Assembly (NCBI GenBank): GCA_021735045.1 | Contig: JAIPHU010000001.1 | Coordinates: 75,890-107,889, forward strand | Direction: 5' to 3' | Origin: Candidatus Omnitrophota bacterium | GTDB lineage: Bacteria; Omnitrophota; Gorgyraeia; Duberdicusellales; 4484-171 | DNA length: 32,000 nucleotides | Part shown: one piece after another, positions 5,940 through 19,399 of the stretch | Numbering within the stretch: position 1 is the stretch's first letter | Layout of the letters: the number at the start of each line of letters is the position of its first letter | Notes under the pieces: model-generated | Told to the model about the DNA's origin: nothing | Database searches by the model: none | Seen by the model: only the letters and a program-made list of their open reading frames with translations | Translations under genes and position numbers: made by a program

Positions 5940-5989
5940 ATTAACATTTCTATTTAGTAATAAGTATTAACATTTCTATATTGTAATAA
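5940..5989. repeat. Tandem direct repeat, 2 x 24 bp (ATTAACATTTCTATWTWGTAATAA) with a 26-bp period, ending 17 bp upstream of the rex -35
   Basis: 5940-5963 and 5966-5989 are 22/24 identical and separated by GT. Confidence 0.7.
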
Positions 5990-6006: not shown

Positions 6007-6034
6007 TTGACATCGTTTGTCTGTATAGTATAAT
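6007..6034 (+). promoter_or_regulatory. Sigma-70 type promoter of the rex-hydrogenase operon
   Basis: TTGACA (6007-6012), 16-nt spacer, TATAAT (6029-6034). It lies 30 nt upstream of the rex ATG. Confidence 0.6.
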
Positions 6035-6064: not shown

Positions 6065-6688
6065 ATGAAATCAATTTCACGTAAAACTATTGACAGAGCT
6101 CTTTTGTATATCAGAGCTTTAGAAAATTTGCTTAAAGAAAAGAGAGATAAAATTTCTTCTTTGGAATTAGCCGATATTACCGGCAGCTCTGACGTCCAAA
6201 TCCGAAAAGATATATCTTTTTTTGGTAAAGTAGGAACACCTCGAATAGGTTATGAAACAAAAAAATTAAAAGATATTCTAGAAAATTTTATTCTCCAAAA
6301 CAATGTTGTTCATATCGCCTTATTTGGTGTAGGTAATTTAGGAAAAGCAATATTAAAATATCCGGGCTTTCAAACTGATAAAATTAAATTAGTTGCTGCT
6401 TTTGATAAAGCAAAAAGCAAGTTATTAAAAGAAATTAATGGAATTAAAATTTATCCGGTTGAGAGGTCTGTTGAATTAATTAAAAAAGTTCATGCTGAAA
6501 TTGGAATCATTGCAGTTCCTCCCAGAAGCAGCCAAGAGGTTGCGGATATTATGGTTAAAGCGGGTTTAAAAGGGATAATAAATTTTGCACCAAGTTGCAT
6601 CTCTGTTCCTAAAAACACATTTGTTAAGAATATAGATTTTTCAATAGAAATATTATCGATTTTTTCTCATACTCAATTTCAGAAATAA
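6065..6688 (+). CDS. rex: Redox-sensing transcriptional repressor Rex
   Basis: Winged-helix N-terminus (SSLELADITGSSDVQIRKDISFFG) plus NAD(H) Rossmann GVGNLGKAIL...IIAVP. 207 aa, typical Rex size. Confidence 0.9.
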   Translation: MKSISRKTIDRALLYIRALENLLKEKRDKISSLELADITGSSDVQIRKDISFFGKVGTPRIGYETKKLKDILENFILQNNVVHIALFGVGNLGKAILKYPGFQTDKIKLVAAFDKAKSKLLKEINGIKIYPVERSVELIKKVHAEIGIIAVPPRSSQEVADIMVKAGLKGIINFAPSCISVPKNTFVKNIDFSIEILSIFSHTQFQK

Positions 6689-6708
6689 ATAATTTTTAGG
6701 AGGTAGGT

Positions 6709-7080
6709 ATGGCAAAAATTTTAATGGTAGATGATGACAGAGAATTTTTAGAAGCATCTAAGGCAGTGCTTTCGGCTGAAGGTTATCAAGTTATATTGAC
6801 TAAAAATGTTTCGCAAGCTGAAAAAAAGATCAAAGAAGAGAAGCCGGATATGATTTTTCTTGATGTGATGATGGAAGCACCTGATGATGGTATTGTTTTT
6901 GCCCATAAATTAAAAAAAGAAAATGTTGGTATTCCAATTGTTATGTTAAGTGCTATAGGTAAAGTTACCGGATATAGCCATAACCGTTGTGATGAGGTTA
7001 TGCCTTGTGATGGGTTTTTAGAAAAACCGGTTAATCCAAAAAGCTTATTAAATAAGGTTAAAAAGATCGTAGGTAAATAA
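6709..7080 (+). CDS. Single-domain response regulator receiver (CheY-like, no output domain)
   Basis: VDDD8-10, phospho-acceptor Asp52 (IFLDVMM), Ser81 (VMLSA), Lys105 (LEKP). 123 aa. RBS AGGAGG 8 nt upstream. Confidence 0.85.
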   Translation: MAKILMVDDDREFLEASKAVLSAEGYQVILTKNVSQAEKKIKEEKPDMIFLDVMMEAPDDGIVFAHKLKKENVGIPIVMLSAIGKVTGYSHNRCDEVMPCDGFLEKPVNPKSLLNKVKKIVGK

Positions 7081-7097
7081 TAGAGGAGAGTGTAGTC

Positions 7098-7577
7098 ATG
7101 GATAAAATGTGTTCAGTATCAAAAACCATAACTCAGGGAAAAAAGAAAATCCAGGTTTGTGATGCAACTCGTAGCCAACTTATTCCGATATTACGGCAAA
7201 TTCAGGAAAAAAAAGGTTATATATCTGATAAGAACATGCAAGAAGTTGCGTCTTCTTTGGGGATACATCCAGTTGAAGTTTATTCTGTTGTTACCTTTTA
7301 TTCTTTTTTAACTACTGAAAAAAAAGGAAAACATATTATCAGAATAAGTAATTGTATATCCTCGGTTATGGCAGGCAGTAAAAGAATTATTAAAATTTTT
7401 GAAAAAGAGTTAGGAATAAAGGTGGGAGAAACTACTAAAGATAAAAAGCTTAGCTTAGAAGAGACTAGTTGCATTGGGATGTGTGATCAAGCCCCAGCTG
7501 CTTTAATTGACGGAAATTTAATCGGCAAGCTAACGGCAAAAAAAGTAAAAAATATAGTTAAAGAATTAAAAAAGTAA
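7098..7577 (+). CDS. NuoE/HydC-like thioredoxin-fold subunit (module 1) with non-canonical [2Fe-2S] Cys pattern
   Basis: IPILRQIQEKKGYISDKNMQEVASSLGIHPVEVYSVVTFYSFL and SCIGMCDQAPA are NuoE-family hallmarks. The first Cys pair is replaced (ISNCISSVMAGS). Confidence 0.8.
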   Translation: MDKMCSVSKTITQGKKKIQVCDATRSQLIPILRQIQEKKGYISDKNMQEVASSLGIHPVEVYSVVTFYSFLTTEKKGKHIIRISNCISSVMAGSKRIIKIFEKELGIKVGETTKDKKLSLEETSCIGMCDQAPAALIDGNLIGKLTAKKVKNIVKELKK

Positions 7578-7592
7578 AATAGGGGAGAAAAT

Positions 7593-8774
7593 ATGACAAA
7601 AACGCGTAAAGGACCAATTATATTTAGTAAAAGCAAGCCTTTTTCTGGATTAAAGAATGCGATAGATATAGGCAGAAGTGAAGTTTTAGATTATGTACGT
7701 AAATCTAATATTAAAGGTAGGGGCGGAGCAGGTTTTCCCACTGGTGTTAAATGGAATCTTACCGCTACTGCTTCTGATAAGAAAAAATATGTTATTTGTA
7801 ATGCCGATGAGGGTGAACCAGGAACTTTTAAAGATAGAGTCCTTTTAGATGAATATGCAAAACTTGTTTTTGAGGGAATGGTTATTTGTGCGTTTGCTGT
7901 AGGTGCTGATGAAGGCATCTTGTATCTACGCGGTGAATATATATCATTTCTTCCTGAGCTGGAAAAAACCTTAAATCAGATGAGAAAGAATAATTTATTA
8001 GGTAAAAATATTTTAGGCAAAAAAGGCTTTAATTTCGATATAAAGATAAGATTAGGTGTCGGGGCCTATGTTTGCGGTGAAGAAACTTCTCTTATTGAAT
8101 CATTAGAAGGATATAGAGGTGAACCCCGCAACAAACCTCCTTTCCCTACCAATACTGGATTTGCAGGTCATCCTACAGTTATAAATAATGTTGAAACTTT
8201 TGCAGCAATAGCTCATATAATTTTAAAAGGGCCAGATTGGTTTAGATCTATTGGAACTGAAAAATCTTCTGGGTCTAAACTAATAAGTGTATCTGGTGAT
8301 TGTAAAAAACCAGGTGTTTATGAAATTCCTTTTGGAACCACTATTAAAAAAATTTTAAAACTAACAGAAGCTAAAGACACTAAAGCTGTTGAAGTAGGGG
8401 GTGCATCAGGAGTTTGTGTGGCTAAATCAGAATTTGGCAGAAAGATTGCTTACGAAGATTTATCTACTGGTGGTTCTATTATAATTTTTAGCAAAAAAAG
8501 GGATTTATTGGAGGTAGCTAAAAATTTTCTTGATTTTTTTGCTGAAGAATCTTGCGGCCAATGCACACCTTGCCGAGAAGGTATTCCGGTGTTACAAGAA
8601 AAATTAGATAAATTACAACAAAAAAAAGCAACAAAGGGTGACCTTGAAGATATTTTTTCTTTAGCTGAGACTATGTACTTAGCTTCAAAGTGTGGCTTAG
8701 GCCAAACTGCTGCTTCAGCTTTTGTTTCGATATTAAGTAATTTTAAAAAAGATTATGTTTTGGTTAAATCATAA
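7593..8774 (+). CDS. NuoF-like FMN/NADH-binding subunit (module 1), core only
   Basis: GRGGAGFPTGVKW, CNADEGEPGTFKDR, GAYVCGEETSLIESLEG, ESCGQCTPCREG...KCGLGQTA (complete CxxCxxC...C). 393 aa. It lacks the N-terminal [2Fe-2S] and C-terminal 2x[4Fe-4S] domains seen in the second copy. Confidence 0.85.
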   Translation: MTKTRKGPIIFSKSKPFSGLKNAIDIGRSEVLDYVRKSNIKGRGGAGFPTGVKWNLTATASDKKKYVICNADEGEPGTFKDRVLLDEYAKLVFEGMVICAFAVGADEGILYLRGEYISFLPELEKTLNQMRKNNLLGKNILGKKGFNFDIKIRLGVGAYVCGEETSLIESLEGYRGEPRNKPPFPTNTGFAGHPTVINNVETFAAIAHIILKGPDWFRSIGTEKSSGSKLISVSGDCKKPGVYEIPFGTTIKKILKLTEAKDTKAVEVGGASGVCVAKSEFGRKIAYEDLSTGGSIIIFSKKRDLLEVAKNFLDFFAEESCGQCTPCREGIPVLQEKLDKLQQKKATKGDLEDIFSLAETMYLASKCGLGQTAASAFVSILSNFKKDYVLVKS

Positions 8775-8789
8775 GGAGGAATCTTATTT

Positions 8790-10706
8790 ATGGCTAAAGA
8801 ACCTTTTACAAAACCTACTTCGCGTGCTCCGGTAAGTCAAAGGTCGCAAACTGTAGGTAAAATTAACAAAAAAGCTTTAGGGGGAAAAGTAACTGCAGTA
8901 ATTGATGGTATTGAAATTAAAGTTCCTATGGGAACAACTATTTTAGAAGCAGCTAAAAAAATAGGTATAAAAATACCGACTCTTTGCCATCATGAGGATT
9001 TATGTTTAGCTGGGGTATGCCGTGTTTGCTTGGTTGAAGTGGAGGGGCAAAAAACCTTACAGGCATCTTGTTCTTATCCGATTATTCATAATGTAGTAGT
9101 TAAAACTTATTCATCACGGGTAAGGCGAGCTAGAAAAAATATTATTCATCTTCTTTTACGCAATCATTATGGTGAATGTTATTCTTGTGAAAAAAATAAT
9201 AATTGTGAACTGCAAGATTTAGCAGAAGAATATGGTGTTACCGAATATAAGTTTGGCCATATTCAGGAGAGGCGTTTTCAGCCTGATCTTTCGAGTTCTG
9301 CTATAACTAAAGATAATGATAAATGTATAAATTGTAAAAGATGTATCAGGACTTGCATTGATTTGCAAGAAGTTGGAGTTTATGAATCAGTTAATCGCGG
9401 GCCAGAAACAAAAGTTTCGACTTATTTAAATAAGCCTTATTCAGATGTAATTTGTATAAATTGCGGACAATGCGTAAATAGATGCCCTACAGGAGCCCTA
9501 AAGGAGAAAAATGATGTTGCAGGTGTATGGAAAGCTATAGATAATCCTAATAAGCATGTTGTGATTCAAACTGCACCAGCACCACGGGCAGCAATTGGAG
9601 AAGAGTTTGGTCTGGCTCCAGGCACCTCAGTTACCAAACAGTTAAATACAGCTATAAAAAGAGTTGGGTTCGATAAGGTTTTTGATACTAACTCGTCAGC
9701 AGATTTAACTATTATGGAAGAAGGTACAGAACTATTGCTTAGGCTTAAGAAATATTTAAAAGAGCAGGATAAAAGCGTTAAATTACCTCAGTTTACTTCT
9801 TGTTCGCCGGGTTGGATCAAATATTTAGAAGATTTTTATCCGGATAAAGTAGATTATTTATCAACTTGTAAAAGCCCCCAACAGATGTTTGGGGCATTAA
9901 TCAAGACATATTATGCAAAAAAAGCAAAAATTGATCCTAAAAACATTGTTAGTGTATCATTGATGCCGTGTGTTGCTAAAAAATATGAAGCTAAAAGACC
10001 AGAGATGAATGATTCAGGTTATCAGGATGTTGATTATGTTTTAACCACCAGAGAACTTGCGAGCATGGTCAAGGAATGCGGATTAGATTTACCTCGGTTA
10101 CCGGAATCTGACTTTGATAAGCCTCTAGCTATAGGAAGCGGTGCAGGATTAATTTTTGGTGCAACCGGTGGTGTTATGGAAGCAGCTTTACGAACTGCTT
10201 ATGAATTAGTTACCGGTGATGAAGCTCCTTTTAAAAAATTAAGAGTTACTCCAGTAAGAGGTATGGAAGGTATCCGTGATGCTCAAATTCCGATAAAAAA
10301 AGCTAAAAAAGAGTGGAAATTTCTTGAGGGTGCCAGCTTAAAGGTTATGGTTGCTCATGGTACAGCTAATGCTAAAAAAGTAATGGAGATGCTTGAGTTG
10401 GGTAAGTTAGATGATTATCATTTTGTTGAAATTATGGCTTGCCCGGGTGGCTGTTTAGGTGGAGGGGGTCAACCTATCCCTACTACCGACGCAATAAGGA
10501 AACAACGGGCAAAAGCAATATATGCTGAGGACGAACAACTCACTATTAGAAAATCTCATCAGAATCCTGTAGTGGAGACTCTTTATAAAGAGTTTTTAAC
10601 TGATGGGCCATGTGGGCACAAGAGCCACAAATTTTTACATACTCATTATTCTCCGGGTAGTAGTTGGATAGGTAAAAAACCGAGAGTAAAAGTTAGGAAA
10701 AAATAA
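8790..10706 (+). CDS. [FeFe]-hydrogenase HydA-like large subunit (module 1, M3 architecture) with variant L1 motif TSCSPGW
   Basis: N-terminal [2Fe-2S] fold (LCHHEDLCLAGVCRVC), HYGECYSCEKNNNCELQ, two 4Fe-4S motifs (CINCKRCIRTC, CINCGQCVNRCP), L2 MPCVAKKYE, L3 EIMACPGGCLGGGGQP. L1 reads FTSCSPGW instead of TSCCPxW. Confidence 0.85.
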   Translation: MAKEPFTKPTSRAPVSQRSQTVGKINKKALGGKVTAVIDGIEIKVPMGTTILEAAKKIGIKIPTLCHHEDLCLAGVCRVCLVEVEGQKTLQASCSYPIIHNVVVKTYSSRVRRARKNIIHLLLRNHYGECYSCEKNNNCELQDLAEEYGVTEYKFGHIQERRFQPDLSSSAITKDNDKCINCKRCIRTCIDLQEVGVYESVNRGPETKVSTYLNKPYSDVICINCGQCVNRCPTGALKEKNDVAGVWKAIDNPNKHVVIQTAPAPRAAIGEEFGLAPGTSVTKQLNTAIKRVGFDKVFDTNSSADLTIMEEGTELLLRLKKYLKEQDKSVKLPQFTSCSPGWIKYLEDFYPDKVDYLSTCKSPQQMFGALIKTYYAKKAKIDPKNIVSVSLMPCVAKKYEAKRPEMNDSGYQDVDYVLTTRELASMVKECGLDLPRLPESDFDKPLAIGSGAGLIFGATGGVMEAALRTAYELVTGDEAPFKKLRVTPVRGMEGIRDAQIPIKKAKKEWKFLEGASLKVMVAHGTANAKKVMEMLELGKLDDYHFVEIMACPGGCLGGGGQPIPTTDAIRKQRAKAIYAEDEQLTIRKSHQNPVVETLYKEFLTDGPCGHKSHKFLHTHYSPGSSWIGKKPRVKVRKK

Positions 10707-10707
10707 C

Positions 10708-11457
10708 GTGAATAGTAAAAAATATAAGAAAAAAGATAAGTTAGATATTTCTAATCAAGAACTTGAGTCTTCTGATAAACAGTATCTTGATTTAGTTGGT
10801 TTTGTCTCGCATGAGCTAAAAGGAATTCTTTCTTCGGTTGTTTTAAATACCTATAATTTGCAAAATGGCCTATTGGGAGATCTAAATCCAGCTCAGAAAA
10901 AAACATTAAAATCTATAAGTAGAAATTTAGATTATTTAACTACAACTGTTCGTAATTTTTTGAATTTTAGCCGGATTGAAAAACAAGAGTTATCTTTGAA
11001 TAAATTTCGTTGTCTATTCAAAGAAGATATAGTTGATGTTTCCATTGATTCATATTCACAAGCAGCTGCAGATAAAGATATAAAAATTATAAATAAAGCA
11101 ATCTCTTCGCTAGAGGTAGAAGTAGATTCAGGATTGTTACAGATAGCATTAAATAATCTTTTATCTAATGCGATAAAATATGGCAAAGAAGGCCGGGAGG
11201 TTGTAATTTCAACTGAATTAGATAACAATAAAGTTATAGTTGAAATATATAATCAGGGTGAATCTATAGATAAGACTGATATTGATAAGTTATTTAAAAA
11301 GTTTAGCCGTCTGCATTATCGCGGTACCGAAAAGATAAAAGGAACCGGAATTGGCCTTTATATTACCAAAGAGATTATCAACCAGCATCATGGAAATATC
11401 TGGGTTGAACCAAAGCCAGAAGGAAATAGTTTTAAGTTCAGTTTAGAGGTGGTATAA
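10708..11457 (+). CDS. Soluble histidine kinase consisting only of DHp (HisKA) and HATPase_c domains
   Basis: H-box FVSHELKGIL (His35), N-box LLSNAIKYG, G2 GTGIGLYITKEII. No TM segment or sensor domain. GTG start 1 nt after the hydA1 stop. Confidence 0.8.
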   Translation: MNSKKYKKKDKLDISNQELESSDKQYLDLVGFVSHELKGILSSVVLNTYNLQNGLLGDLNPAQKKTLKSISRNLDYLTTTVRNFLNFSRIEKQELSLNKFRCLFKEDIVDVSIDSYSQAAADKDIKIINKAISSLEVEVDSGLLQIALNNLLSNAIKYGKEGREVVISTELDNNKVIVEIYNQGESIDKTDIDKLFKKFSRLHYRGTEKIKGTGIGLYITKEIINQHHGNIWVEPKPEGNSFKFSLEVV

Positions 11458-11482
11458 TAACGGCTCGAAAATTTTAAAAAAA

Positions 11483-12352
11483 ATGAAAAATAAAATCTTA
11501 ATTATTGATGATGATGCTGATTTTGTAGAAGCAATCTCTTTACTATTGGAAGCAAACGGTTATAAAACATTGCAAGCTTATAATGGTAAAGAAGGTTTTG
11601 CTCAAGCAAAAGAGCAGGTGCCTGATTTGATAATGTTGGATATGAAGATGGCATATCAAACTGAAGGTGCTGAAACTGCTAAAGCAATGTCAAAAGATGC
11701 AGAAATAAAGGATATCCCAGTCATTTTAGCAACTGGAATCGGTAAAGAGTTGACTAAAAAGTTAAAAGAGATCCTTAGGAATGAAGCAATGTCAGTTAAA
11801 ACTGTTATTGAAAAGCCAATAGAAGCAAAAGAGCTTCTTAAAATAATAAAGAATTATATAGGTGAAAGTGGCGGCAAAGAACATAGAGAATTAATCAAAC
11901 AAATTACCAGTTTTGCTAATAAATGGAAAGGCAAGAAAGGTAATTTAGTTATGATTCTTCATGAAATACAAAATTATTATGGTTATGTACCCAGGGGTAT
12001 TTCGTTTCAATTATCTCGGTTATTAGGTATTCCTTTAGCAAGAATTTATGAAGTTATAACCTTTTATAATTTTTTCAAGCTTTCGCCTCCTGGCAAACAT
12101 GTGATTTCGGTTTGTATGGGGACAGCTTGTTATCTAAAGGGTGCTGCGGAGTTAGTTGATAAGATTAAAAGTCTTCTTAAAATAGAAGAAGGCCAAACTA
12201 CAGAAGACGGTTTGTTTCATCTTCAAGTTGTTAGATGCCTAGGTTGTTGTGGTCTTGCTCCTGTAGTTATGGTTGATCAAAAAATATATTCAAAAGTTGT
12301 GCCAGATAGCATCGAAGGTATTGTTTCTAGATACAGGCAGGATAAAAGTTAA
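11483..12352 (+). CDS. hydC: Receiver domain fused to NuoE/HydC [2Fe-2S] subunit (REC::HydC, module 2)
   Basis: aa 1-~125 form a receiver: DDD9-11, Asp53 (IMLDMKM), Thr84, Lys111. aa ~135-289 form a NuoE-type domain with canonical CMGTAC...CLGCCGLAP. Single uninterrupted 289-aa ORF. Confidence 0.85.
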   Translation: MKNKILIIDDDADFVEAISLLLEANGYKTLQAYNGKEGFAQAKEQVPDLIMLDMKMAYQTEGAETAKAMSKDAEIKDIPVILATGIGKELTKKLKEILRNEAMSVKTVIEKPIEAKELLKIIKNYIGESGGKEHRELIKQITSFANKWKGKKGNLVMILHEIQNYYGYVPRGISFQLSRLLGIPLARIYEVITFYNFFKLSPPGKHVISVCMGTACYLKGAAELVDKIKSLLKIEEGQTTEDGLFHLQVVRCLGCCGLAPVVMVDQKIYSKVVPDSIEGIVSRYRQDKS

Positions 12353-12353
12353 T

Positions 12354-14156
12354 ATGGATAAATTAAATCAAAAAAAAATAGAAGAACTTAGAGAAAAACT
12401 TCAAAAGCAAAGACCGGGTTTTGTTAAGGTTGGAGTAAGTTCTTGTGGAATAGCAGCTGGAGCAAATGATGTATTAGATCGTTTTATAGCTTTAAAAAAG
12501 AAAAATAATTTAGATATTGAAATTAGAAAGTGTGGTTGTGCTGGTATGTGTTATGCAGAGCCATTGGTGGAAGTTTCTTTAGACGGTAGAGATTCTGTAA
12601 CTTATAAAGAAGTTACACCTGAACTAGTAGAAAAAATAGTAAAAAATCATATTATCTCCGGAAAAATCCAAGAGGATTATGTTTATAAAACCGATACTGA
12701 AAAAAAACAGTTTAAGTTAATTCTTTCCAATTGTGGAAAAGTTAACCCAGAAAGTATCAATGATTATATTTCTTTGGGTGGTTACCGAGCTGTAGAAAAA
12801 GTTCTTATTAAAGAAAATAGGCAAGAGGTAATTGATCAGTTGAAAATAAGTGGTTTGAGAGGAAGAGGCGGGGGAGGTTTTCCCACCTGGTTAAAATGGA
12901 ATTTTGCTAAAGGAGTTAACGCAGATAAAAAGTATATAATCTGTAATGGCGACGAGGGTGATCCCGGGGCTTATATGGATAGGAGCCTTCTAGAGGGTAA
13001 TCCTCATGCAATTATTGAGGGGATGATTATTGCTGGTTTTGCTGTAGGGGCAGATGAAGGGTTTTTTTATATTCGAGCCGAATATCCTCTTGCAATTTCT
13101 CGAGTTCAAAAAGCAATTGATGCTGCTATTGATTATGGATTATTGGGAGAAAATATTTTAGATACTGGGTTTAACTTTAATTTACAAATTCGTCTTGGTG
13201 CCGGTGCGTTTGTTTGTGGAGAAGAAACTGCTTTAATTGCATCTATTGAAGGTAAGCGTGGCTATCCTTCTCCGCGTCCTCCCTATCCTTCTGTAAAAGG
13301 CCTTTGGTCGAAACCAACGGTGATCAACAACGTTGAAACTTTAGCTAATATTCCAATTATATTTGATAAAGGAGGAGATTGGTTTTCAAAAATTGGAAGT
13401 CAAAACTCTAAAGGTACCAAGGTATTTGCTCTCACCGGGAAAGTTAAAAATTCTGGTTTAGTTGAAGTTCCGATGGGCACGACTTTAGGTGAAATTGTTT
13501 ATGGTATTGGTGGCGGTGTATCTGGCGGCAAAGTGAAGGCGATTCAGACTGGTGGGCCTTCCGGAGGAGTTATTCCTAAAGAATACTTTGATACTCCTGT
13601 AAATTATGAAAGTTTGCAAAAATTAGGTTCCATAATGGGTTCCGGCGGAATGATTGTTATGGATGAAAAGGATTGTATGGTTGATATCGCTAAATTTTAT
13701 ATGAAATTTTGTGTAGAAGAGGCTTGTGGTAAATGTTCTCCTGGCCGCATTGGAACTTATCAGATGTTACAATATCTTAAAAAGATATCCAAGGGTAAAG
13801 CAAACATGAATGATTTACAGTTATTAGAGGATATTGCTTATGCGGTTCAAAGGACCGCTTTGTGTGGGTTAGGCCAAACTGCACCTAATCCCGTAGTATC
13901 AACTTTAAAGTATTTTCGCGATGAATATATTGCGCATATTAAAGAACAAAGATGTCCAGCGGGAAAATGTAAAGATTTAGCAAAATATAAGATAGTTGAA
14001 GACAAGTGTAAAAAATGTGGTGCTTGTATTAAAGTTTGTCCAGTAGAGGCGATTTCAGGAGATAAAGATAAGGGCTACAAGATAGATCAAAAAAAGTGTA
14101 TCCAGTGTGGTAAATGTTTCCAAGTTTGTAGTTTTGATGCAATAAAAAAAGGTTAA
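12354..14156 (+). CDS. hydB: HydB (NuoF-like NADH/FMN subunit with N-terminal [2Fe-2S] and C-terminal 2x[4Fe-4S] domains), module 2
   Basis: Start at ATG 12354, 1 nt after the previous stop. SSCG...KCGCAGMC; GRGGGGFPTWLKW; CNGDEGDPGAYMDR; CKKCGACIKVCP; CIQCGKCFQVCS. The N3 motif reads ACGKCSPGRIG (third Cys is Gly). Confidence 0.85.
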   Translation: MDKLNQKKIEELREKLQKQRPGFVKVGVSSCGIAAGANDVLDRFIALKKKNNLDIEIRKCGCAGMCYAEPLVEVSLDGRDSVTYKEVTPELVEKIVKNHIISGKIQEDYVYKTDTEKKQFKLILSNCGKVNPESINDYISLGGYRAVEKVLIKENRQEVIDQLKISGLRGRGGGGFPTWLKWNFAKGVNADKKYIICNGDEGDPGAYMDRSLLEGNPHAIIEGMIIAGFAVGADEGFFYIRAEYPLAISRVQKAIDAAIDYGLLGENILDTGFNFNLQIRLGAGAFVCGEETALIASIEGKRGYPSPRPPYPSVKGLWSKPTVINNVETLANIPIIFDKGGDWFSKIGSQNSKGTKVFALTGKVKNSGLVEVPMGTTLGEIVYGIGGGVSGGKVKAIQTGGPSGGVIPKEYFDTPVNYESLQKLGSIMGSGGMIVMDEKDCMVDIAKFYMKFCVEEACGKCSPGRIGTYQMLQYLKKISKGKANMNDLQLLEDIAYAVQRTALCGLGQTAPNPVVSTLKYFRDEYIAHIKEQRCPAGKCKDLAKYKIVEDKCKKCGACIKVCPVEAISGDKDKGYKIDQKKCIQCGKCFQVCSFDAIKKG

Positions 14157-14158
14157 TT

Positions 14159-15904
14159 ATGCCCAAAGCAATAATAAATAACAAAGAAGTCATAGTTGAG
14201 GAAGGTACAACAATTCTTGATGCTGCCAAAAAGATAAATATAGATATTCCTACTTTGTGTAAGCATCCTGACTTAGATGCCAGTGCTGCTTGCGGTATTT
14301 GCGTAGTTAAGGTCAAAGGGTCAAAAAAGATGCTTCGGGCTTGCTGTACTGCGTTAGAAGAAGGTATGAATATAATCACTCATGACAATGAACTTCAGAA
14401 GATAAGAAGGACGGTTATCGAATTAATTTTATCAAATCATCCTAATGATTGCCTTCAATGTGCGCGCAACAATAACTGTGAGCTACAAAAACTAGCTGCT
14501 GATTTTGGAATAAGGGAATTTCCTTTTCCTCAATTTTTAAGAGATGTCCCTGAAGATGAATCTACTAAAACCATTGATCTTGTTCCTTCAAAGTGTATTC
14601 TTTGTGGCAGGTGTGTACAGGTGTGCCAGGATTTACAAGATGTTTGGGCACTTTCTTTTATTGAAAGAGGACACAAAACTAGGATTTCTGCTGCCGGAGA
14701 TATTAATTTGTCAGAAAGTCCTTGTATTCGTTGTGGGCAGTGTTCGGCCCATTGTCCTACCGGTGCTATTGCCGAGCATGATCAAACCGAAGATGTTTGG
14801 AGGGCTTTATATAACGAGAAAAAATATTGTATGGTTCAAATTGCTCCTGCTGTAAGAGTTGCGATCGGAGAAGCATTTAATCTTCCTATTGGCGCGAATT
14901 TAACTGGGAAAATTTATTCGGCTCTCCGGCGTCTAGGTTTTAATGCAGTATTTGATACTTCTTTTGGCGCAGATGTTACTGTTATGGAGGAAGCTACTGA
15001 GTTTGTGGAACGTTTTGTTCATAAAAAGGGTAAATTACCTTTGATAACTACTTGCTGCCCCTCTTGGGTTGATTTTATGGAAAAATTTTATCCGGATATG
15101 ATTGATAATTTTTCTTCCTCAAAATCTCCTCATGAGATGTTAGGGGTATTAGCAAAAACTTATTTTGCCCAAAAAAATAAAATAGATCCAAAAGATATGT
15201 ATATGGTATCAATCATGCCTTGTACATCCAAAAAATATGAAATAAGCCGCAGCAATCAAATGTATGCCTCAGGATATCAAGATGTTGATACATCATTAAC
15301 TACTCGTGAATTAGCAAGAATGATAAAACAGGCCGGAATTGATTTTGCTAATTTAGAAGAAGAGAAGGCTGATAATATTTTAGGTGATTATACCGGGGCG
15401 GGAGTAATTTTTGGCGCAACCGGTGGGGTTATGGAAGCAGCTTTACGAACTGCTTATTTTTTAATTACTGGTAAAAACTTTAAAGAGGTAAAATATAATG
15501 ATGTGCGTGGCCTTGAGGGTGTAAAAGAAACAGTTGTAAATATTGCGGGAGAAAAAGTGAGGATAGCTATAGCTCATGGTATGGGAAATGTTGAAGCTGT
15601 TTTAAATAAAATCCGTCAAGCTTTGGCTGAAGGCAAAAAGCCTCCTTATGATTTTATTGAAGTTATGGCTTGTCCGGGTGGCTGTATCGGTGGGGGCGGC
15701 CAACCTTATGGAGTTACGGATCAGCTTCGTATTGCCAGGGCATCTGGCCTGTATAGTGATGATGATAAAAAAGAGATTCATTTTTCTCATGATAATCCAT
15801 ACATAAAACAATTATATGATAGCTTTTTAGGTAAACCGTCAGGAGAAAAAGCTAAAAAATTATTGCATACGCGCTATGTGCCGCGTCCGCTTTACAAAAA
15901 ATAG
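14159..15904 (+). CDS. hydA: [FeFe]-hydrogenase catalytic subunit HydA (M3 type, canonical H-cluster motifs), module 2
   Basis: L1 TTCCPSW, L2 MPCTSKKYE, L3 EVMACPGGCIGGGGQP. N-terminal [2Fe-2S], HPNDCLQCARNNNCELQ, CILCGRCVQVC, CIRCGQCSAHCP. Confidence 0.9.
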   Translation: MPKAIINNKEVIVEEGTTILDAAKKINIDIPTLCKHPDLDASAACGICVVKVKGSKKMLRACCTALEEGMNIITHDNELQKIRRTVIELILSNHPNDCLQCARNNNCELQKLAADFGIREFPFPQFLRDVPEDESTKTIDLVPSKCILCGRCVQVCQDLQDVWALSFIERGHKTRISAAGDINLSESPCIRCGQCSAHCPTGAIAEHDQTEDVWRALYNEKKYCMVQIAPAVRVAIGEAFNLPIGANLTGKIYSALRRLGFNAVFDTSFGADVTVMEEATEFVERFVHKKGKLPLITTCCPSWVDFMEKFYPDMIDNFSSSKSPHEMLGVLAKTYFAQKNKIDPKDMYMVSIMPCTSKKYEISRSNQMYASGYQDVDTSLTTRELARMIKQAGIDFANLEEEKADNILGDYTGAGVIFGATGGVMEAALRTAYFLITGKNFKEVKYNDVRGLEGVKETVVNIAGEKVRIAIAHGMGNVEAVLNKIRQALAEGKKPPYDFIEVMACPGGCIGGGGQPYGVTDQLRIARASGLYSDDDKKEIHFSHDNPYIKQLYDSFLGKPSGEKAKKLLHTRYVPRPLYKK

Positions 15905-15959
15905 TTATTTGCCCTAAAGCAAGGATTTTTCTAAAACTAAGGGGTATTGGTGTTAATTT

Positions 15960-15990
15960 CCAACCTTCTTAGGTTGGTTTTTTTATTTTT
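15960..15990 (+). terminator. Intrinsic terminator after hydA
   Basis: CCAACCT-TCTT-AGGTTGG (15960-15977) followed by TTTTTTTATTTTT. Confidence 0.7.
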
Positions 15991-16000
15991 AGGAGGTTTT

Positions 16001-16252
16001 ATGGAACAAAGGCTGGGTTTTGTGGGAATTATTATTGAAGAGCGTTTAAAAGTGGCAAAAAAGGTTAATTCTGTTCTTTTTGATTTCGGTGAAATTATCA
16101 TTGGGAGGATAGGGCTTCCTTATAAAGAAAAGTCGTGCAATGTTATTACTCTTATTATAAACGCTAACAGTGATCAACTAGGTGCATTAACTGGTCAATT
16201 GGGAAAAGTAGAAGGGGTTTCGGTAAAGTCAGCTTTGGCTAAGAAAAAATAA
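16001..16252 (+). CDS. TM1266-like ACT-fold protein (putative iron-only hydrogenase system regulator family)
   Basis: Start at ATG 16001 behind AGGAGG (15991-15996). IIGRIGLPYKEK...GQLGKVEGVSVKSAL matches my recollection of the TM1266/TIGR03959 family. Sits directly upstream of hydF. Confidence 0.7.
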   Translation: MEQRLGFVGIIIEERLKVAKKVNSVLFDFGEIIIGRIGLPYKEKSCNVITLIINANSDQLGALTGQLGKVEGVSVKSALAKKK

Positions 16253-16253
16253 T

Positions 16254-17516
16254 ATGAGAAAAACACCTAAATCATTAAGGTTACAATTAGGTCTATTTGG
16301 AAGGACTAATATCGGCAAGTCAACTTTTTTAAATATGGTTGCTGGCCAAGATGTATCGATAACTTCTTCGGTCCCGGGGACTACAACCGATGTTGTCGAA
16401 AAATCAATGGAACTTCTTCCGGTTGGCCCAGTAGTTTTTCTAGATACTGCCGGCGTAGATGATGACTCAGAGTTGGCTTCTCTAAGGCTCATAAAGACAA
16501 GGAAAATTTTTGATCGGGCTGATATTATTATACTTTTAGTAGAGCCTGATATTTGGTCGAGTTTTGAGAGATCAGTTGCTTTTGAGGCGGAAAAGAGAAG
16601 CATTCCTTTAATTATAGTTGTAAATAAGGTTGATCAAAAAAAGCCAAAAGAAGATTTTATTCAAAAGATCAAAAAACATACTAATTTTTATCTATTAGTA
16701 TCTAGTCTGGATATAAAAAATAGGGATAAATATGTCAACTTGTTAAAAAGTTATTTAATAAAATGCTGCCCGGATGATTTTATAAATCCGCCTTCTTTAG
16801 TCGGGGATCTTTTACCGGAAGGTGGCCTAGCGGTTTTAATTGTTCCGATTGATCTTGAAGCTCCCAAAGGAAGGATCATTTTACCTCAAGTACAAACTAT
16901 AAGAGATTGCCTAGACAATAAACAAATGGCTTTAGTTGTTAAAGAAAGTGAATATGTCAGCAGTCTTAGCAAGTTAAATAATAATCCGGATTTGGTTATT
17001 TGTGATTCGCAGGTAGTATCATTTATGGTAAAAAATAGCCCTTCGGGTATAAATTGCACTACATTTTCAATTGTTTTTTCACGCAATAAAGGAGAGCTGG
17101 CCGAAGAGGTAAAGGCTGTTACTGCCATTGATAGACTAAAAAATGGTGATAAGGTTTTAATTGCTGAAGCTTGTTCTCATCATCCGATAGAAGATGATAT
17201 TGGGCGCATAAAGATACCTAAATGGTTAAGGCAATATACAAAAAAAGAGATAAAAATTGATTCTTGTGCTGGAAGGGATTATCCCGACAATTTATCAAAA
17301 TATAAACTAATCATTCATTGTGGCGGATGCATGATAACACGTAGAGAGATGTTGTTTAGAATTCAAAAAGCTAAAGAACAGAAAGTTGCTTTGACCAATT
17401 ATGGTCTGGCGATATCGCATTTGCAAGGAGTACTAGAGAGAGTGTTGTCTCCTTTTCCAGCCGCGTATGATATATACAAACAAGAAAGAAATGGGGGTTA
17501 TAATAATGAAAACTAA
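16254..17516 (+). CDS. hydF: [FeFe]-hydrogenase maturation GTPase HydF
   Basis: G1 GRTNIGKS, G3 DTAG, G4 NKVD. C-terminal FeS motif EACSHHP ... HCGGC. Confidence 0.9.
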   Translation: MRKTPKSLRLQLGLFGRTNIGKSTFLNMVAGQDVSITSSVPGTTTDVVEKSMELLPVGPVVFLDTAGVDDDSELASLRLIKTRKIFDRADIIILLVEPDIWSSFERSVAFEAEKRSIPLIIVVNKVDQKKPKEDFIQKIKKHTNFYLLVSSLDIKNRDKYVNLLKSYLIKCCPDDFINPPSLVGDLLPEGGLAVLIVPIDLEAPKGRIILPQVQTIRDCLDNKQMALVVKESEYVSSLSKLNNNPDLVICDSQVVSFMVKNSPSGINCTTFSIVFSRNKGELAEEVKAVTAIDRLKNGDKVLIAEACSHHPIEDDIGRIKIPKWLRQYTKKEIKIDSCAGRDYPDNLSKYKLIIHCGGCMITRREMLFRIQKAKEQKVALTNYGLAISHLQGVLERVLSPFPAAYDIYKQERNGGYNNEN

Positions 17517-19005
17517 AAAGATAGATTTGGGTCTATGGAAAAAAAATAGGATAAAAGAAGATGAGATCAAAAGATATAAGAAAGAAGGCCAAGGATCCTT
17601 TATTGATCATAAAAAAATAGAATTTCTTTTGGCAAAGAAAAGAAAAATTAGTAAAAAAGAAATCAAAGATATTTTAGCAAAGTCTTTAACAATTGAGGCT
17701 TTAAGTTTAGAAGAAACAGCAGTGCTGCTTTCTGTAGAGGATAAAGAATTACTTTCTTTAATGGAGGAAACCGCTTATAAAATAAAAAGGAATGTTTATG
17801 ACAACAGAATTGTAACCTTTGCTCCGCTGTATTTGGGCAATTTCTGTGTTAATGACTGTCTTTACTGCGGGTTCCGTGAATCAAATAAAAATGCTTGCAG
17901 AAAAGTTTTAAGCAGGGATGAAATTATTTCTGATACAAAAGTTTTAGCAGGAAAAATTGGGCATAAGCGTTTAATTGTTGTCTACGGTGAACATCCAAAA
18001 AATGATGTAGATTATATAGAAAAGAGTATAAAAGCTATTTATTCAGTAAAAGAAAAGACTAAAAATGGTTTTGGCCAGATTAGAAGAGTTAATGTAAATG
18101 CTCCTCCTTTTGCAATTGATGATTTGAAAAAGCTGCATGAAGTAGGTATTGGTACTTATCAGGTTTTTCAAGAGACCTATCATCCTGAAACTTACCGGAA
18201 AGTTCACCCCCAGAACACAATCAAGGGTAACTATGACTGGCGTCTTTATTGTATGCATCGGGCGTTTGAGGCGGGGATCGATGATCTAGGAATTGGTGTT
18301 CTTTTTGGATTGTATGATTGGAAGTTTGAATTGATGGGATTAGTTGCTCATGCTCATGAATTGGAAAATAAATTTGGGGTTGGGCCGCATACCATCTCGT
18401 TTCCAAGGTTAGAACCGGCTGATAGTTCGCCTTATACGCAAAATTCAAAGTTTAAAGTTAGTGATAAAGATTTCCGAAGATTAATTACTGTAATTAGGTT
18501 AGCTGTTCCTTATACGGGAATGATTATTACAGCCAGAGAGACTCCTCAAATACGAGAAGATTCTTTAACATTAGGGGTTACCCAAACCGATGCTTCTTCT
18601 CGGATTGGAATTGGCGGTTATAGTAAAGCTACCCAAACTCAGGAAAGCAATCGGCAGCAATTTTTGTTAGGAGATACAAGAAGTTTAGATGAAGTAGTTA
18701 GAAAGTTTTCGGAAATGGGTTTTATAACCTCATTTTGTACAGCGGGATATCGTTGTGGCAGAACCGGTAAATGCATCATGGATTTGTTAAAAAAGGGCGA
18801 GGAAGGTAAATTCTGTAAGCTTAACGCGGTTTTAACTTTTCGTGAGTGGCTTGATGATTTTGCAACTCCAGAAACTAAAAGGGCCGGGGAGCTAGTTATA
18901 AAAAAGGAAATTCAAGAAGTAAAAACAAGAAATCTAAAAATATACGAGCAATTTATTAATTTTTATGATAGGATAAAAAGGGGTGAAAGGGACTTATACT
19001 TTTAG
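17506..19005 (+). CDS. hydG: Radical SAM HydG-like (ThiH/HydG family) maturase with variant C-terminal Cys motif
   Basis: FAPLYLGNFCVNDCLYCGFR radical-SAM CX3CX2C; GHKRLIVVYGEHP. C-terminal SFCTAGYRCGRTGKC...FCKLNA. Start chosen at ATG 17506 (GGGGG 8 nt upstream), overlapping hydF by 11 nt. Confidence 0.8.
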   Translation: MKTKKIDLGLWKKNRIKEDEIKRYKKEGQGSFIDHKKIEFLLAKKRKISKKEIKDILAKSLTIEALSLEETAVLLSVEDKELLSLMEETAYKIKRNVYDNRIVTFAPLYLGNFCVNDCLYCGFRESNKNACRKVLSRDEIISDTKVLAGKIGHKRLIVVYGEHPKNDVDYIEKSIKAIYSVKEKTKNGFGQIRRVNVNAPPFAIDDLKKLHEVGIGTYQVFQETYHPETYRKVHPQNTIKGNYDWRLYCMHRAFEAGIDDLGIGVLFGLYDWKFELMGLVAHAHELENKFGVGPHTISFPRLEPADSSPYTQNSKFKVSDKDFRRLITVIRLAVPYTGMIITARETPQIREDSLTLGVTQTDASSRIGIGGYSKATQTQESNRQQFLLGDTRSLDEVVRKFSEMGFITSFCTAGYRCGRTGKCIMDLLKKGEEGKFCKLNAVLTFREWLDDFATPETKRAGELVIKKEIQEVKTRNLKIYEQFINFYDRIKRGERDLYF

Positions 19006-19011
19006 TTCAAA

Positions 19012-19054
19012 GTCCAACGTCCAATGTTCAATGTGAATTAGTGAATAGTTGATT
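19012..19054. repeat. Drifting heptamer array GTCCAAC GTCCAAT GTTCAAT GTGAAT(TA) GTGAATA GTTGATT
   Basis: Read directly. Successive units differ by 1-2 substitutions. The array fills the spacer between the hydG stop (19005) and the next ATG (19079). Confidence 0.7.
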
Positions 19055-19078
19055 TAATTAACCAGTTAACCAAACAAG

Positions 19079-19348: not shown

Positions 19349-19399
19349 CCATGTAATTTTTAATCTTCATTTTATAATAAAATTTTATTAAAAAATATT

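What the first reader, a model, noticed from the sequence alone, without database searches (positions are those of the whole stretch)
11483..12352. Receiver domain fused directly to the HydC (NuoE-like) [2Fe-2S] subunit
The 289-aa ORF has a complete receiver: DDD9-11, Asp53 at nt 11639-11641, Thr84 and Lys111. A short linker follows, then a full NuoE-type domain with all four cluster Cys (CMGTAC ... CLGCC).

A phospho-acceptor domain on a subunit of the NADH-side arm of a bifurcating hydrogenase implies phosphorylation-dependent control of electron flow or complex assembly, not of transcription. I know of no characterised example.

The stand-alone receiver at 6709-7080 looks like a paralogue. 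Both share the D-x-x-M-x5-G loop and the xIGK segment after the Thr/Ser, so both may be partners of the adjacent kinase.
Basis: partly seen in the sequence, partly recalled or inferred. Interest (0 to 1): 0.75.

Follow-up and report, generated by a model that had tools for sequence, protein, structure and literature searches.

The report
Receiver domain fused to hydrogenase HydC subunit
The small iron-sulfur subunit (HydC) of an electron-bifurcating hydrogenase carries a two-component receiver domain and sits next to its likely kinase, so the enzyme itself, not just its genes, may be switched by phosphorylation; this design recurs in hundreds of uncultured bacteria but I found no paper describing it.

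Summary
ORF 11483-12352 (+) is an uninterrupted 289-aa protein: a receiver (REC, aa 5-123) with D9-D11, D53, T84 and K111-P112, then a NuoE/HydC [2Fe-2S] domain (aa 144-284) with all four Cys.

It is not an assembly artefact. The 120 best 90%-identity clusters (51-91% identical, mostly Omnitrophota MAGs) all carry both domains. D53 is kept in 112/121, K111 in 121/121 and the four Cys in 121/121. REC-to-HydC spacing is 36 aa in 117/121, and REC dN/dS is about 0.04.

It is the only HydC gene of the HydB-HydA set it heads. A HisKA kinase lies directly upstream in 11/13 fused loci against 2/71 unfused ones. In relatives that kinase has a periplasmic sCache_3_3 sensor; in this window it is cut down to the catalytic core.

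A second, more canonical REC-NuoE family (at least 120 clusters, Nitrospirota and others) heads formate-dehydrogenase-like, Hdr-linked and hydrogenase Bfu-type clusters.

No solved structure, curated family or paper found covers the fusion. The most likely function is phosphorylation-dependent control of the enzyme through HydC, the subunit proposed to gate bifurcation. That is inferred, not shown.

The parts
6007..6034 (+). Sigma-70-like promoter, TTGACA-16-TATAAT (12/12), 31 nt before rex. Likely start of a long operon.
   Evidence: Consensus match only; the total count of promoter-like sites in the region is not above shuffles.
6065..6688 (+). Rex-type redox-sensing repressor, the transcription-level regulator at the head of the cluster.
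   Evidence: Pfam Put_DNA-bind_N + CoA_binding. Rex heads the cluster in most related loci.
6709..7080 (+). REC1, a stand-alone receiver directly before NuoE1. It is a paralogue of the fused REC.
   Evidence: Pfam Response_reg E 4.2e-19. 33% identity to the fused REC. Separate REC clade with L001, L006 and L047. pN 0.073 / pS 0.534, about 0.08 after correction, against L001.
7098..10706 (+). First hydrogenase set: NuoE1 (7098-7577), short NuoF (7593-8774) and HydA1 (8790-10706).
   Evidence: Pfam and NCBIfam FeFe_hydrog_A6 at 820.9 bits.
10708..11457 (+). Sensor-less histidine kinase (HisKA + HATPase_c, 249 aa with a GTG start). Probable phospho-donor for the fused REC.
   Evidence: Pfam. It aligns to the C-terminal 230 aa of 610-aa sCache_3_3-HAMP kinases of relatives, with the H-box SHELKG, N-box and G2 box kept. 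dN/dS 0.042 against L001. A kinase lies directly upstream of the fused gene in 11/13 loci.
11483..12352 (+). REC-HydC fusion protein, 289 aa. This is the finding.
11495..11851 (+). Receiver domain, aa 5-123. Phospho-acceptor D53 is codon 11639-11641; the other key residues are D9-D11, T84 and K111-P112.
   Evidence: Pfam. The AF2 model shows a (beta-alpha)5 fold. Conservation: D53 112/121, T84 112/121, K111 121/121. dN/dS 0.038.
11852..11911 (+). Junction: the end of REC helix alpha5, a short ESGGK break, then the start of the first HydC helix. Fixed length across the family.
   Evidence: AF2 helices 115-127 and 130-147. K111-to-W148 spacing is 36 aa in 117/121 and 37 aa in 4/121.
11912..12334 (+). 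NuoE/HydC/BfuC domain, aa 144-284, with [2Fe-2S] ligands C211, C216, C252 and C256.
   Evidence: Pfam E 5.3e-47. PDB sequence hits 7t2r_C, 8a6t_C, 7q4v_C and 7p5h_C. Foldseek TM-score normalised to the target 0.81-0.87. The four Cys are kept in 121/121.
12354..14156 (+). HydB/BfuB, 600 aa from the ATG at 12354: FMN/NADH module plus C-terminal 2x[4Fe-4S].
   Evidence: Pfam Complex1_51K, NADH_4Fe-4S and Fer4 x2. The 600-aa length matches orthologues.
14159..15904 (+). HydA2, the catalytic [FeFe]-hydrogenase subunit with canonical TTCCP / MPC / MACPGGC H-cluster motifs.
   Evidence: Pfam. NCBIfam FeFe_hydrog_A6 at 801.7 bits against a cutoff of 765. Motifs.
15960..15977 (+). Terminator-like hairpin followed by a T-run after hydA2. 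Probable operon end.
   Evidence: consensus match only.
15947..19005 (+). TM1266-like regulator (Pfam match from aa 22 of the ORF; real start probably the ATG at 16001), HydF (16254-17516) and HydG (17467-19005) maturases.
   Evidence: Pfam TM1266-like. HydF and HydG are named from sequence inspection, and the same order recurs in related loci when these window proteins are used as queries.

Best explanation
The gene encodes the HydC (BfuC) subunit of a HydABC-type, NADH- and ferredoxin-linked [FeFe]-hydrogenase, with a phosphorylatable receiver domain on its N-terminus.

Proposed mechanism:
1. The HisKA kinase encoded directly upstream autophosphorylates and passes the phosphoryl group to Asp53.
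2. The usual receiver switch (T84, K111, the alpha4-beta5-alpha5 face) changes REC conformation and/or makes it dimerise.
3. REC helix alpha5 runs through a fixed-length junction into the first helix of HydC's four-helix bundle. That bundle sits at the HydB/HydA interface. The change is therefore passed on to the enzyme.
4. The effect is either to bias the 'HydC-in/HydC-out' swing of the [2Fe-2S] C1 domain, which has been proposed to gate bifurcation, or to change assembly of the (HydABC)n oligomer.

The result is post-translational control of hydrogen metabolism, layered on transcriptional control by Rex. In most relatives the input is an extracytoplasmic ligand sensed by an sCache_3_3 kinase. 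In this window's sub-lineage the kinase has lost its sensor, so it is constitutive or controlled by a partner.

Shown: the domain anatomy, its conservation, the kinase linkage, the sole-HydC status and the absence of a DNA-binding output.
Inferred: phosphotransfer, and any effect on activity or assembly.
For: - Both domains are complete.
- All 120 listed homologous clusters carry PF00072 + PF01257.
- Conservation in 121 sequences: D53 93%, T84 93%, K111 100%, four Cys 100%.
- Purifying selection against L001: dN/dS 0.038 for the REC, 0.053 for the HydC part, 0.042 for the short kinase.
- In L002, L004, L005 and L007-L013 the fused gene is the only NuoE-like gene found next to hydB-hydA, so it must serve as HydC.
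- A kinase lies directly upstream in 11/13 fused loci against 2/71 unfused (Fisher p = 3e-10, not corrected for phylogeny).
- The long kinase form is TM-sCache_3_3-HAMP-HisKA-HATPase_c. The window's kinase keeps the catalytic boxes.
- The junction length is invariant although its sequence varies. AF2 gives a standard REC whose alpha5 nearly continues into the first HydC helix.
- No DNA-binding domain is present in this protein, and none was found in the window proteins that were scanned.
- REC and HydC also occur as adjacent separate genes in L045, L054 and L057, and as REC1-NuoE1 in this window. The link therefore exists without fusion.
- A second REC-BfuC family has D, T/S, Y/F and K each in 120/120. 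It heads FDH-like, Hdr-linked and hydrogenase Bfu clusters. This points to the shared BfuBC core as the target.
Against: - There is no experimental evidence of phosphorylation or of any effect on activity.
- The AF2 inter-domain geometry is uncertain (pTM 0.58). No complex model could be made, so steric compatibility with HydB/HydA is untested.
- The usual aromatic switch residue on beta5 is V108 here.
- 9 of 121 family members have H, N or E in place of D53. The domain can evidently persist without a phospho-acceptor.
- In this window the kinase has no sensor, and its G1 box reads NQGES where the long kinases of relatives have NDGxP (canonical DxGxG is from my own knowledge). Signalling here may be degenerate.
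- In L081 an NtrC-type regulator lies between the kinase and the REC-HydC gene. There the main output of the kinase could be transcription.
Confidence: 0.55

Rival explanations
1. Signal flows the other way, or sideways. The REC on HydC is a phosphate sink or feedback node of a two-component pathway whose real output is transcription through another regulator. The redox or assembly state of HydC would modulate how fast the REC takes or loses phosphate, so the hydrogenase reports its state to the pathway instead of being controlled by it.
For: In L081 the same kind of sCache_3_3 kinase is followed by an NtrC-type sigma-54 activator and a REC-REC protein before REC-HydC. Many relatives carry an extra solo REC after hydA, from the clade nearest the fused RECs; this is typical of branched pathways with sinks. 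Single-domain receivers acting as phosphate sinks are established in chemotaxis (own knowledge).
Against: In the main Omnitrophota family no DNA-binding response regulator was detected beside the kinase with the queries used. The order there is Rex-kinase-REC-HydC. The strictly fixed REC-HydC junction length suggests mechanical coupling and not a loosely tethered sink.
Confidence: 0.2
2. The REC is a structural, phosphorylation-independent module (a pseudo-receiver in function). It would help dimerise or dock HydC in the complex. The neighbouring kinase would serve the solo receivers only.
For: 9/121 members have lost D53 (H x5, N x2, E x2) yet keep the fusion and K111. The window's kinase is truncated. 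The aromatic switch position is aliphatic.
Against: D53, the acidic pair, T84 and K111 are kept in over 90% of members, and all are present here. In the second family D, T/S, Y/F and K are each kept in 120/120. Kinase adjacency tracks the fusion, not the solo RECs.
Confidence: 0.15
3. Artefact: a missed stop or frameshift, or a chimeric assembly, joins a stand-alone receiver gene to hydC.
For: REC and NuoE do occur as adjacent separate genes in L045, L054 and L057 and at 6709-7577 in this window.
Against: The same continuous frame, with the same junction length, is found in at least 120 independent 90% clusters from many assemblies and in 13 species-representative genomes. Both halves have dN/dS of about 0.04-0.05. 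The linker offers no start codon for a full HydC domain.
Confidence: 0.02

Closest known systems
HydC / BfuC subunit of electron-bifurcating HydABC and related Bfu enzymes (PDB 7P5H T. maritima, 7Q4V A. woodii, 8A6T T. kivui, 7T2R NiFe-HydABCSL, 9N5U NfnABC)
   Same: aa 137-287 align to these chains at E 1e-32 to 1e-43. The model superposes with a TM-score normalised to the target of 0.81-0.87. The four [2Fe-2S] Cys match, the gene order hydC-hydB-hydA is the same, and HydB carries the FMN module plus extra clusters.
   Different: All solved HydC/BfuC chains begin where residue 137-154 of this protein aligns. None has a receiver domain, and no solved chain covers more than half of the model (TM-score normalised to the query at most 0.49).
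Response regulators with non-DNA-binding outputs (CheB REC-methylesterase, PleD REC-GGDEF, RssB adaptor, single-domain CheY/DivK)
   Same: A receiver with the full phospho-acceptor pocket, next to a HisKA kinase, controlling a protein activity and not a promoter. The best PDB and NCBIfam REC matches are RpaA, DivK, CheY and the DVU0259/DivK-like family.
   Different: Here the output is a redox-cofactor subunit of a multi-subunit electron-bifurcating oxidoreductase. I found no described case of that. The beta3-alpha3 loop is one residue longer and lacks the usual Pro. The T-to-K segment is 27 aa; CheY's is about 22 aa by my recollection. The aromatic switch residue is Val.
Regulatory modules already noted in [FeFe]-hydrogenase/Bfu gene clusters (sensory group C HydS with PAS or histidine-kinase domains, HATPase_c/DRTGG/PHP genes, Rex)
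   Same: Signalling proteins are encoded inside hydrogenase operons (PMC11406978; PMC8542988). Rex heads this cluster. The DRTGG/HATPase_c/HydS-like/PHP sets occur beside second-family REC-BfuC genes.
   Different: Those modules are separate proteins or are fused to a sensory hydrogenase, and are thought to act on gene expression or to have unknown targets. Here the signalling domain is covalently part of a core catalytic-complex subunit.

Membership tests
Response regulator receiver (REC, CheY-like; PF00072) | (beta-alpha)5 fold | tested here: met
   Pfam covers model positions 1-111 of 111. AF2 DSSP gives E3-8 H12-24 E27-32 H35-45 E49-53 H61-71 E80-84 H88-101 E105-110 H115-127.
Response regulator receiver (REC, CheY-like; PF00072) | Acidic pair after beta1 and phospho-acceptor Asp at the end of beta3 | tested here: met
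   D9-D10-D11 and D53 are present. In the family D9 is kept in 118, D10 in 109, D11 in 114 and D53 in 112 of 121.
Response regulator receiver (REC, CheY-like; PF00072) | Thr/Ser at the end of beta4 and Lys (usually Lys-Pro) after beta5 | tested here: met
   T84 (112/121), K111 (121/121) and P112 (119/121).
Response regulator receiver (REC, CheY-like; PF00072) | Aromatic switch residue on beta5 (Tyr/Phe three residues before the Lys). Common but not universal. | tested here: not met
   The position is V108. The second REC-BfuC family has Y/F in 120/120.
Response regulator receiver (REC, CheY-like; PF00072) | Actual phosphorylation by a cognate histidine kinase | not testable with these tools
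   Only genomic linkage is available: a HisKA kinase directly upstream in 11/13 fused loci against 2/71 unfused.
NuoE / HydC / BfuC thioredoxin-like [2Fe-2S] subunit (PF01257, IPR002023) | Four cluster-binding Cys (C-x4-C ... C-x3-C) | tested here: met
   C211, C216, C252 and C256, each kept in 121/121.
NuoE / HydC / BfuC thioredoxin-like [2Fe-2S] subunit (PF01257, IPR002023) | N-terminal helical bundle plus C-terminal thioredoxin-like fold | tested here: met
   Foldseek to 7q4v_C, 8a6t_C, 7p5h_C and 7t2r_C: TM-score normalised to the target 0.81-0.87, rmsd 2.0-2.4 A.
BfuABC / group A3-type electron-bifurcating [FeFe]-hydrogenase (HydABC) | Adjacent BfuB/HydB with the FMN-NADH module plus extra clusters: C-terminal 2x[4Fe-4S] and an N-terminal Cys-rich thioredoxin-like domain | tested here: met
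   HydB 12354-14156 has Complex1_51K, NADH_4Fe-4S and two Fer4. The N-terminal ~110 aa carry four Cys (SSCG...KCGCAGMC, read), but Pfam gives no hit there at E <= 0.01. The N-terminal cluster therefore rests on inspection and on 'weak' PF01257 hits in orthologues.
BfuABC / group A3-type electron-bifurcating [FeFe]-hydrogenase (HydABC) | BfuA = HydA with H-cluster motifs and N-terminal Fer2/NuoG-type clusters | tested here: met
   HydA2 has TTCCP, MPC..K and MACPGGC. Pfam finds Fer2_4, NADH-G_4Fe-4S_3, Fe_hyd_lg_C and Fe_hyd_SSU. NCBIfam FeFe_hydrog_A6 scores above its cutoff.
BfuABC / group A3-type electron-bifurcating [FeFe]-hydrogenase (HydABC) | Ferredoxin- and NAD(H)-coupled bifurcating activity | not testable with these tools
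   Biochemical property.
Classical transcription-factor response regulator (OmpR/NarL/NtrC types) | DNA-binding or sigma-54-activating output domain | tested here: not met
   Only Response_reg and 2Fe-2S_thioredx are found. All NCBIfam regulator matches cover the REC part only and lie far below their cutoffs.

The most novel reading that the evidence does not exclude
Receiver phosphorylation directly sets the position or mobility of HydC's C1 [2Fe-2S] domain. It would thereby switch a Bfu-type enzyme on or off, or between bifurcating and non-bifurcating modes, in response to an external ligand sensed by a Cache kinase. This would be a general two-component control of electron bifurcation, shared by the hydrogenase, formate-dehydrogenase-like and Hdr-linked Bfu enzymes that carry REC-BfuC.
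Probability: 0.25. Interest if true: 0.85.

Novelty: new variant of a known kind. Interest (0 to 1): 0.62.

Why it matters
How HydABC/Bfu enzymes bifurcate electrons is still debated, and the mobile HydC/BfuC C1 domain is the proposed gate (PMC10021017, PMC9304861). A natural regulatory domain wired through a fixed-length helix junction into that subunit would be the first sign that cells tune a bifurcating enzyme after translation. It would also give experimenters a handle on the gate, through D53 mutants, BeF3- and the kinase.

It would extend two-component signalling to direct control of a redox enzyme complex. It would also give a function to the kinases and receivers that sit unexplained in many hydrogenase operons. 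The architecture recurs in at least 240 protein clusters across Omnitrophota, Nitrospirota and other uncultured lineages, so it bears on how H2 and formate metabolism is regulated in anoxic environments.

Tried and rejected
- Assembly or frameshift artefact: rejected.
- Internal start giving a free HydC: rejected. There is no start codon between the REC and M157.
- Sensor remnants of the long kinase upstream of the short kinase, by tblastn on the window, L001 and L002: none found. L001 and L002 instead carry a small CxxC ORF there, which this window lacks.
- Canonical Rex operator (TTGTGAA-N4-TTCACAA, up to 3 mismatches): only 3 hits, none near the promoter, and no more than chance.
- Literature searches: response regulator + NuoE + hydrogenase + fused; Omnitrophica + hydrogenase + response regulator; bifurcating + FeFe hydrogenase + histidine kinase + receiver domain; HydC + response regulator; receiver domain + NuoE + hydrogenase; PF01257 + PF00072; response regulator + output domain + 24 kDa subunit. 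None describes the fusion. The 2022 Bfu family survey never mentions receiver, kinase or response regulator.
- Foldseek against AFDB50 was unavailable. Foldseek against PDB found only half-length matches.
- A model of REC-HydC with HydB and HydA could not be made, because the structure tool takes one chain and accepts only unmodified sequences.
Full report
**1. Observation**

ORF 11483-12352 (+) is real and uninterrupted, and encodes 289 aa. Pfam places a Response_reg domain at aa 5-123 (E 2.3e-16, 60.4 bits against a cutoff of 30.2). It places a 2Fe-2S_thioredx (NuoE/HydC) domain at aa 144-284 (E 5.3e-47).

- D9-D10-D11
- D53, codon GAT at 11639-11641
- T84
- K111-P112
- the cluster ligands C211/C216 (CMGTAC) and C252/C256 (CLGCC)

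The AF2 model (117-sequence alignment, mean pLDDT 83.8, pTM 0.58) shows a standard five-stranded receiver. Its last helix (115-127) is separated by only two residues from the first helix of the HydC part (130-147).

**2. Surroundings**

All genes from 6065 to 19005 are on the + strand:

| Coordinates | Gene |
|---|---|
| 6065-6688 | Rex |
| 6709-7080 | solo receiver REC1 |
| 7098-7577 | NuoE1 |
| 7593-8774 | short NuoF (393 aa) |
| 8790-10706 | HydA1 |
| 10708-11457 | histidine kinase (HisKA + HATPase_c, 249 aa, no sensor) |
| 11483-12352 | REC-HydC |
| 12354-14156 | HydB (600 aa) |
| 14159-15904 | HydA2 |
| 15947-16252 | TM1266-like protein |
| 16254-17516 | HydF |
| 17467-19005 | HydG |

- A perfect TTGACA-16-TATAAT match lies at 6007-6034. 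A hairpin followed by a T-run lies at 15960-15977. Together they fit one operon from rex to hydA2, but these are consensus matches only.
- No DNA-binding response regulator was found among the window ORFs that were scanned.

**3. The fusion is not an artefact, and it is conserved**

A search of 5.8 billion protein clusters listed the 120 best hits, 51-91% identical and 274-317 aa long. Every one carries PF00072 + PF01257. Those with names are mostly Candidatus Omnitrophota MAGs, plus one Aureabacteria.

Conservation in the 121-sequence alignment:

| Feature | Kept in |
|---|---|
| D53 | 112/121 (H in 5, N in 2, E in 2) |
| T84 | 112/121 |
| K111 | 121/121 |
| P112 | 119/121 |
| each of the four Cys | 121/121 |
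| K111-to-W148 spacing of 36 aa | 117/121 (37 aa in the other 4) |

The junction sequence varies although its length does not. That argues for a geometric constraint on how the REC is joined to HydC.

Against the closest relative (L001, 91% aa identity), dN/dS is 0.038 for the REC, 0.053 for the HydC part and 0.042 for the short kinase. dS is about 1, near saturation.

**4. Gene context in relatives**

A scan of 185,579 species-representative genomes returned 80 loci, and 13 of them hold the fused gene (L001-L013). I annotated all loci by phmmer with the window's proteins.

- The recurrent order is Rex - kinase - REC-HydC - HydB - HydA - (solo REC) - TM1266-like - HydF/G/E.
- In most fused loci (L002, L004, L005, L007-L013) the fused gene is the only NuoE-like gene found beside hydB-hydA. 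It must therefore be the HydC of that enzyme.
- The kinase is about 610 aa. Pfam finds sCache_3_3, HAMP, HisKA and HATPase_c, and the hydrophobic segments flanking the Cache domain suggest a transmembrane sensor with a periplasmic Cache domain.
- The window, L001 and L002 keep only the C-terminal ~230 aa. The H-box SHELKG, the N-box and the G2 box are intact.
- No sensor remnants remain. L001 and L002 have a small CxxC ORF in that position, and the window has neither.
- A kinase lies directly upstream in 11/13 fused loci against 2/71 unfused hydC genes (Fisher p = 3e-10, not corrected for shared ancestry).
- Unfused orthologues in other Omnitrophota, Fibrobacterota, Elusimicrobiota and so on read Rex - HydC - HydB - HydA.

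**5. Evolution**

- In NJ trees the fused RECs form one clade. The fused HydC domains fall in one clade, which also holds three HydC genes called unfused: L014 (cut by the contig end), L021 and L048.
- The nearest REC relatives are solo receivers that follow hydA in the same operons. The next nearest are solo receivers directly before an unfused hydC in L045, L054 and L057. There the REC is 127 aa and HydC 160-162 aa, in separate ORFs in three independent MAGs.
- REC1 of this window (33% identical) belongs to a different clade that always precedes NuoE1 of the first hydrogenase set.
- Receiver-next-to-NuoE is therefore a recurring association, and the fusion is one outcome of it.

**6. A second family**

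An exhaustive search of 1.84 billion representatives showed that the Omnitrophota family collapses to one 50% cluster. It also showed further full-length REC-NuoE proteins at about 34% identity.

A profile of five of these found at least 120 more 90% clusters, all with PF00072 + PF01257. Names include Nitrospirae/Nitrospiraceae, Dissulfurispiraceae and Zhuqueibacterota. One of the five query clusters also holds a Pseudomonadota MAG protein.

Their REC is canonical, with D-x-x-MP-x-MDG, TGY and KPF motifs. D, T/S, Y/F and K are each kept in 120/120.

Contexts seen for this family:
- L081: a hydrogenase cluster with an sCache_3_3 kinase, an NtrC-type activator and a REC-REC protein.
- L083 and L085: BfuB plus a molybdopterin, formate-dehydrogenase-like BfuA.
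- L084: BfuB plus a small BfuA with HdrA-like, FlpD and CCG genes.

The common denominator is the BfuBC core, not the catalytic subunit.

**7. What is known**

- The closest solved chains are the HydC/BfuC subunits of 7T2R, 9N5U, 8A6T, 7Q4V and 7P5H. All begin where residue 137-154 of this protein aligns, and none has a receiver.
- Foldseek against the PDB finds no chain covering more than half of the model.
- No NCBIfam model reaches its cutoff for the fused protein.
- Seven full-text searches found no paper describing the fusion.
- The survey that defined the Bfu family does not mention receivers or kinases.
- Genome papers on Omnitrophota report the group A3 hydrogenase in genera that carry the fusion (Ca. 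Gygaella, P0010). The passages I searched say nothing about its subunits.
- Public annotations call these proteins 'NAD(P)H-dependent oxidoreductase subunit E' or 'response regulator'.

**8. Mechanism**

Published cryo-EM work places HydC's N-terminal four-helix bundle at the HydB/HydA interface. It shows the C-terminal C1 domain swinging between 'in' and 'out' positions, which is proposed as the gate between the FMN branch and the ferredoxin branch (PMC10021017; PMC9304861).

The REC is joined to that bundle by a fixed-length, nearly continuous helix. My best reading (confidence 0.55) has three steps:
1. The upstream kinase phosphorylates D53.
2. The receiver switch or dimerisation is transmitted through this junction.
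3. The activity, coupling or oligomeric state of HydABC changes. This adds a post-translational layer to Rex-dependent transcription.

Shown: the anatomy, the conservation, the kinase linkage, the sole-HydC status and the lack of a DNA-binding output. Inferred: phosphotransfer and its consequence.

Rival explanations:
- A phosphate-sink or feedback role in a pathway whose main output is transcription (0.2). The NtrC-type regulator in L081 and the extra solo RECs support it.
- A phosphorylation-independent structural role (0.15). The 9/121 members without D53, the aliphatic switch residue and the truncated kinase here support it.
- Artefact (0.02).

**9. Verdict**

The thing is a new variant of known kinds, namely a HydC/BfuC subunit and a receiver domain. 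It is widespread in uncultured anaerobes and apparently undescribed. Interest is 0.62, moderately high for people working on electron bifurcation and on two-component signalling, and limited by the absence of any functional evidence.

Noticed in passing
window 8790-10706 (motif at about 9795-9809): HydA1 of the first hydrogenase set has TSCSPGW where HydA2 has TTCCPSW. By my recollection this is the proton-relay Cys of the canonical TSCCP motif, replaced here by Ser. The same TSCSP is present in its orthologues in L001, L003, L006 and L071.
   Followed up: partly
window 7098-7577: NuoE1 lacks two of the four canonical [2Fe-2S] Cys: it reads ISNCISSV against VCMGTACY, and CIGMC is kept. L001 has the same pattern; L006 has STCITC. 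Cluster binding may be altered or lost.
   Followed up: partly
window 7593-8774: The NuoF of the first set is only 393 aa: FMN module plus one [4Fe-4S], with no C-terminal 2x[4Fe-4S] domain and no room for the ~110-aa N-terminal domain that HydB carries. It resembles the 'sub-type II', presumed non-bifurcating BfuB described in PMC11406978. One operon therefore encodes two different trimeric hydrogenases, each with its own receiver.
   Followed up: partly
window 10706-10770; L001 8950-9290; L002 130-470: The kinase has lost about 380 N-terminal residues (Cache sensor and HAMP). L001 and L002 carry a ~110-aa ORF with a CPVC motif between hydA1 and the short kinase; I take it to be AhpD/CMD-like but ran no family search. 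The window lacks it, and the kinase ORF starts 2 nt after hydA1.
   Followed up: partly
window 5940-5963 and 5966-5989: Near-perfect 24-bp direct repeat ATTAACATTTCTAT(T/A)T(A/T)GTAATAA, period 26, immediately upstream of the -35 of the perfect promoter at 6007-6034. Possible regulator binding sites. No canonical Rex box was found.
   Followed up: no
L004 14458-14856; L007 14857-15243; L008 14827-15210; L011 7529-7912; L013 14728-15111; L054 15007-15399: Many relatives carry an extra solo receiver right after hydA, from the clade nearest the fused RECs. The window has none at that position.
   Followed up: partly
L045 10001-10877; L054 10001-10916; L057 10001-10878: REC (127 aa) and HydC (160-162 aa) are adjacent separate genes. 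These MAGs also have a second cluster with the order HydB(~1067 aa)-HydA-NuoE-REC, headed by a kinase.
   Followed up: partly
L082 4572-5342; L085 7201-7968: Directly before second-family REC-BfuC genes lies a REC fused to a glycine-cleavage H-protein (lipoyl-carrier) domain. This is another receiver on a metabolic-enzyme subunit.
   Followed up: no
P0150 (578 aa): One protein cluster has two tandem REC-NuoE units in a single 578-aa product, seen on 3 contigs. It may be a true duplication-fusion or a gene-call merge.
   Followed up: no
L021 1-2535 (Ca. Susulua stagnicola): A long kinase is followed by a hydC whose match starts at residue ~105 of the fused protein, with only ~240 nt between the genes. 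The REC seems mostly deleted there.
   Followed up: no
P0060, P0069, P0070, P0112, P0116-P0120: Nine family members replace the phospho-acceptor Asp with N, E or H while keeping K111. Six of the nine are among the members most distant from the window. They may be constitutive or pseudo-receiver forms.
   Followed up: partly
window 31130-31693; window 17467-20374: A weak IS200-like (Y1 transposase) ORF lies near the window's end. No HydE-like radical-SAM gene follows hydG here, although most related loci have one.
   Followed up: no
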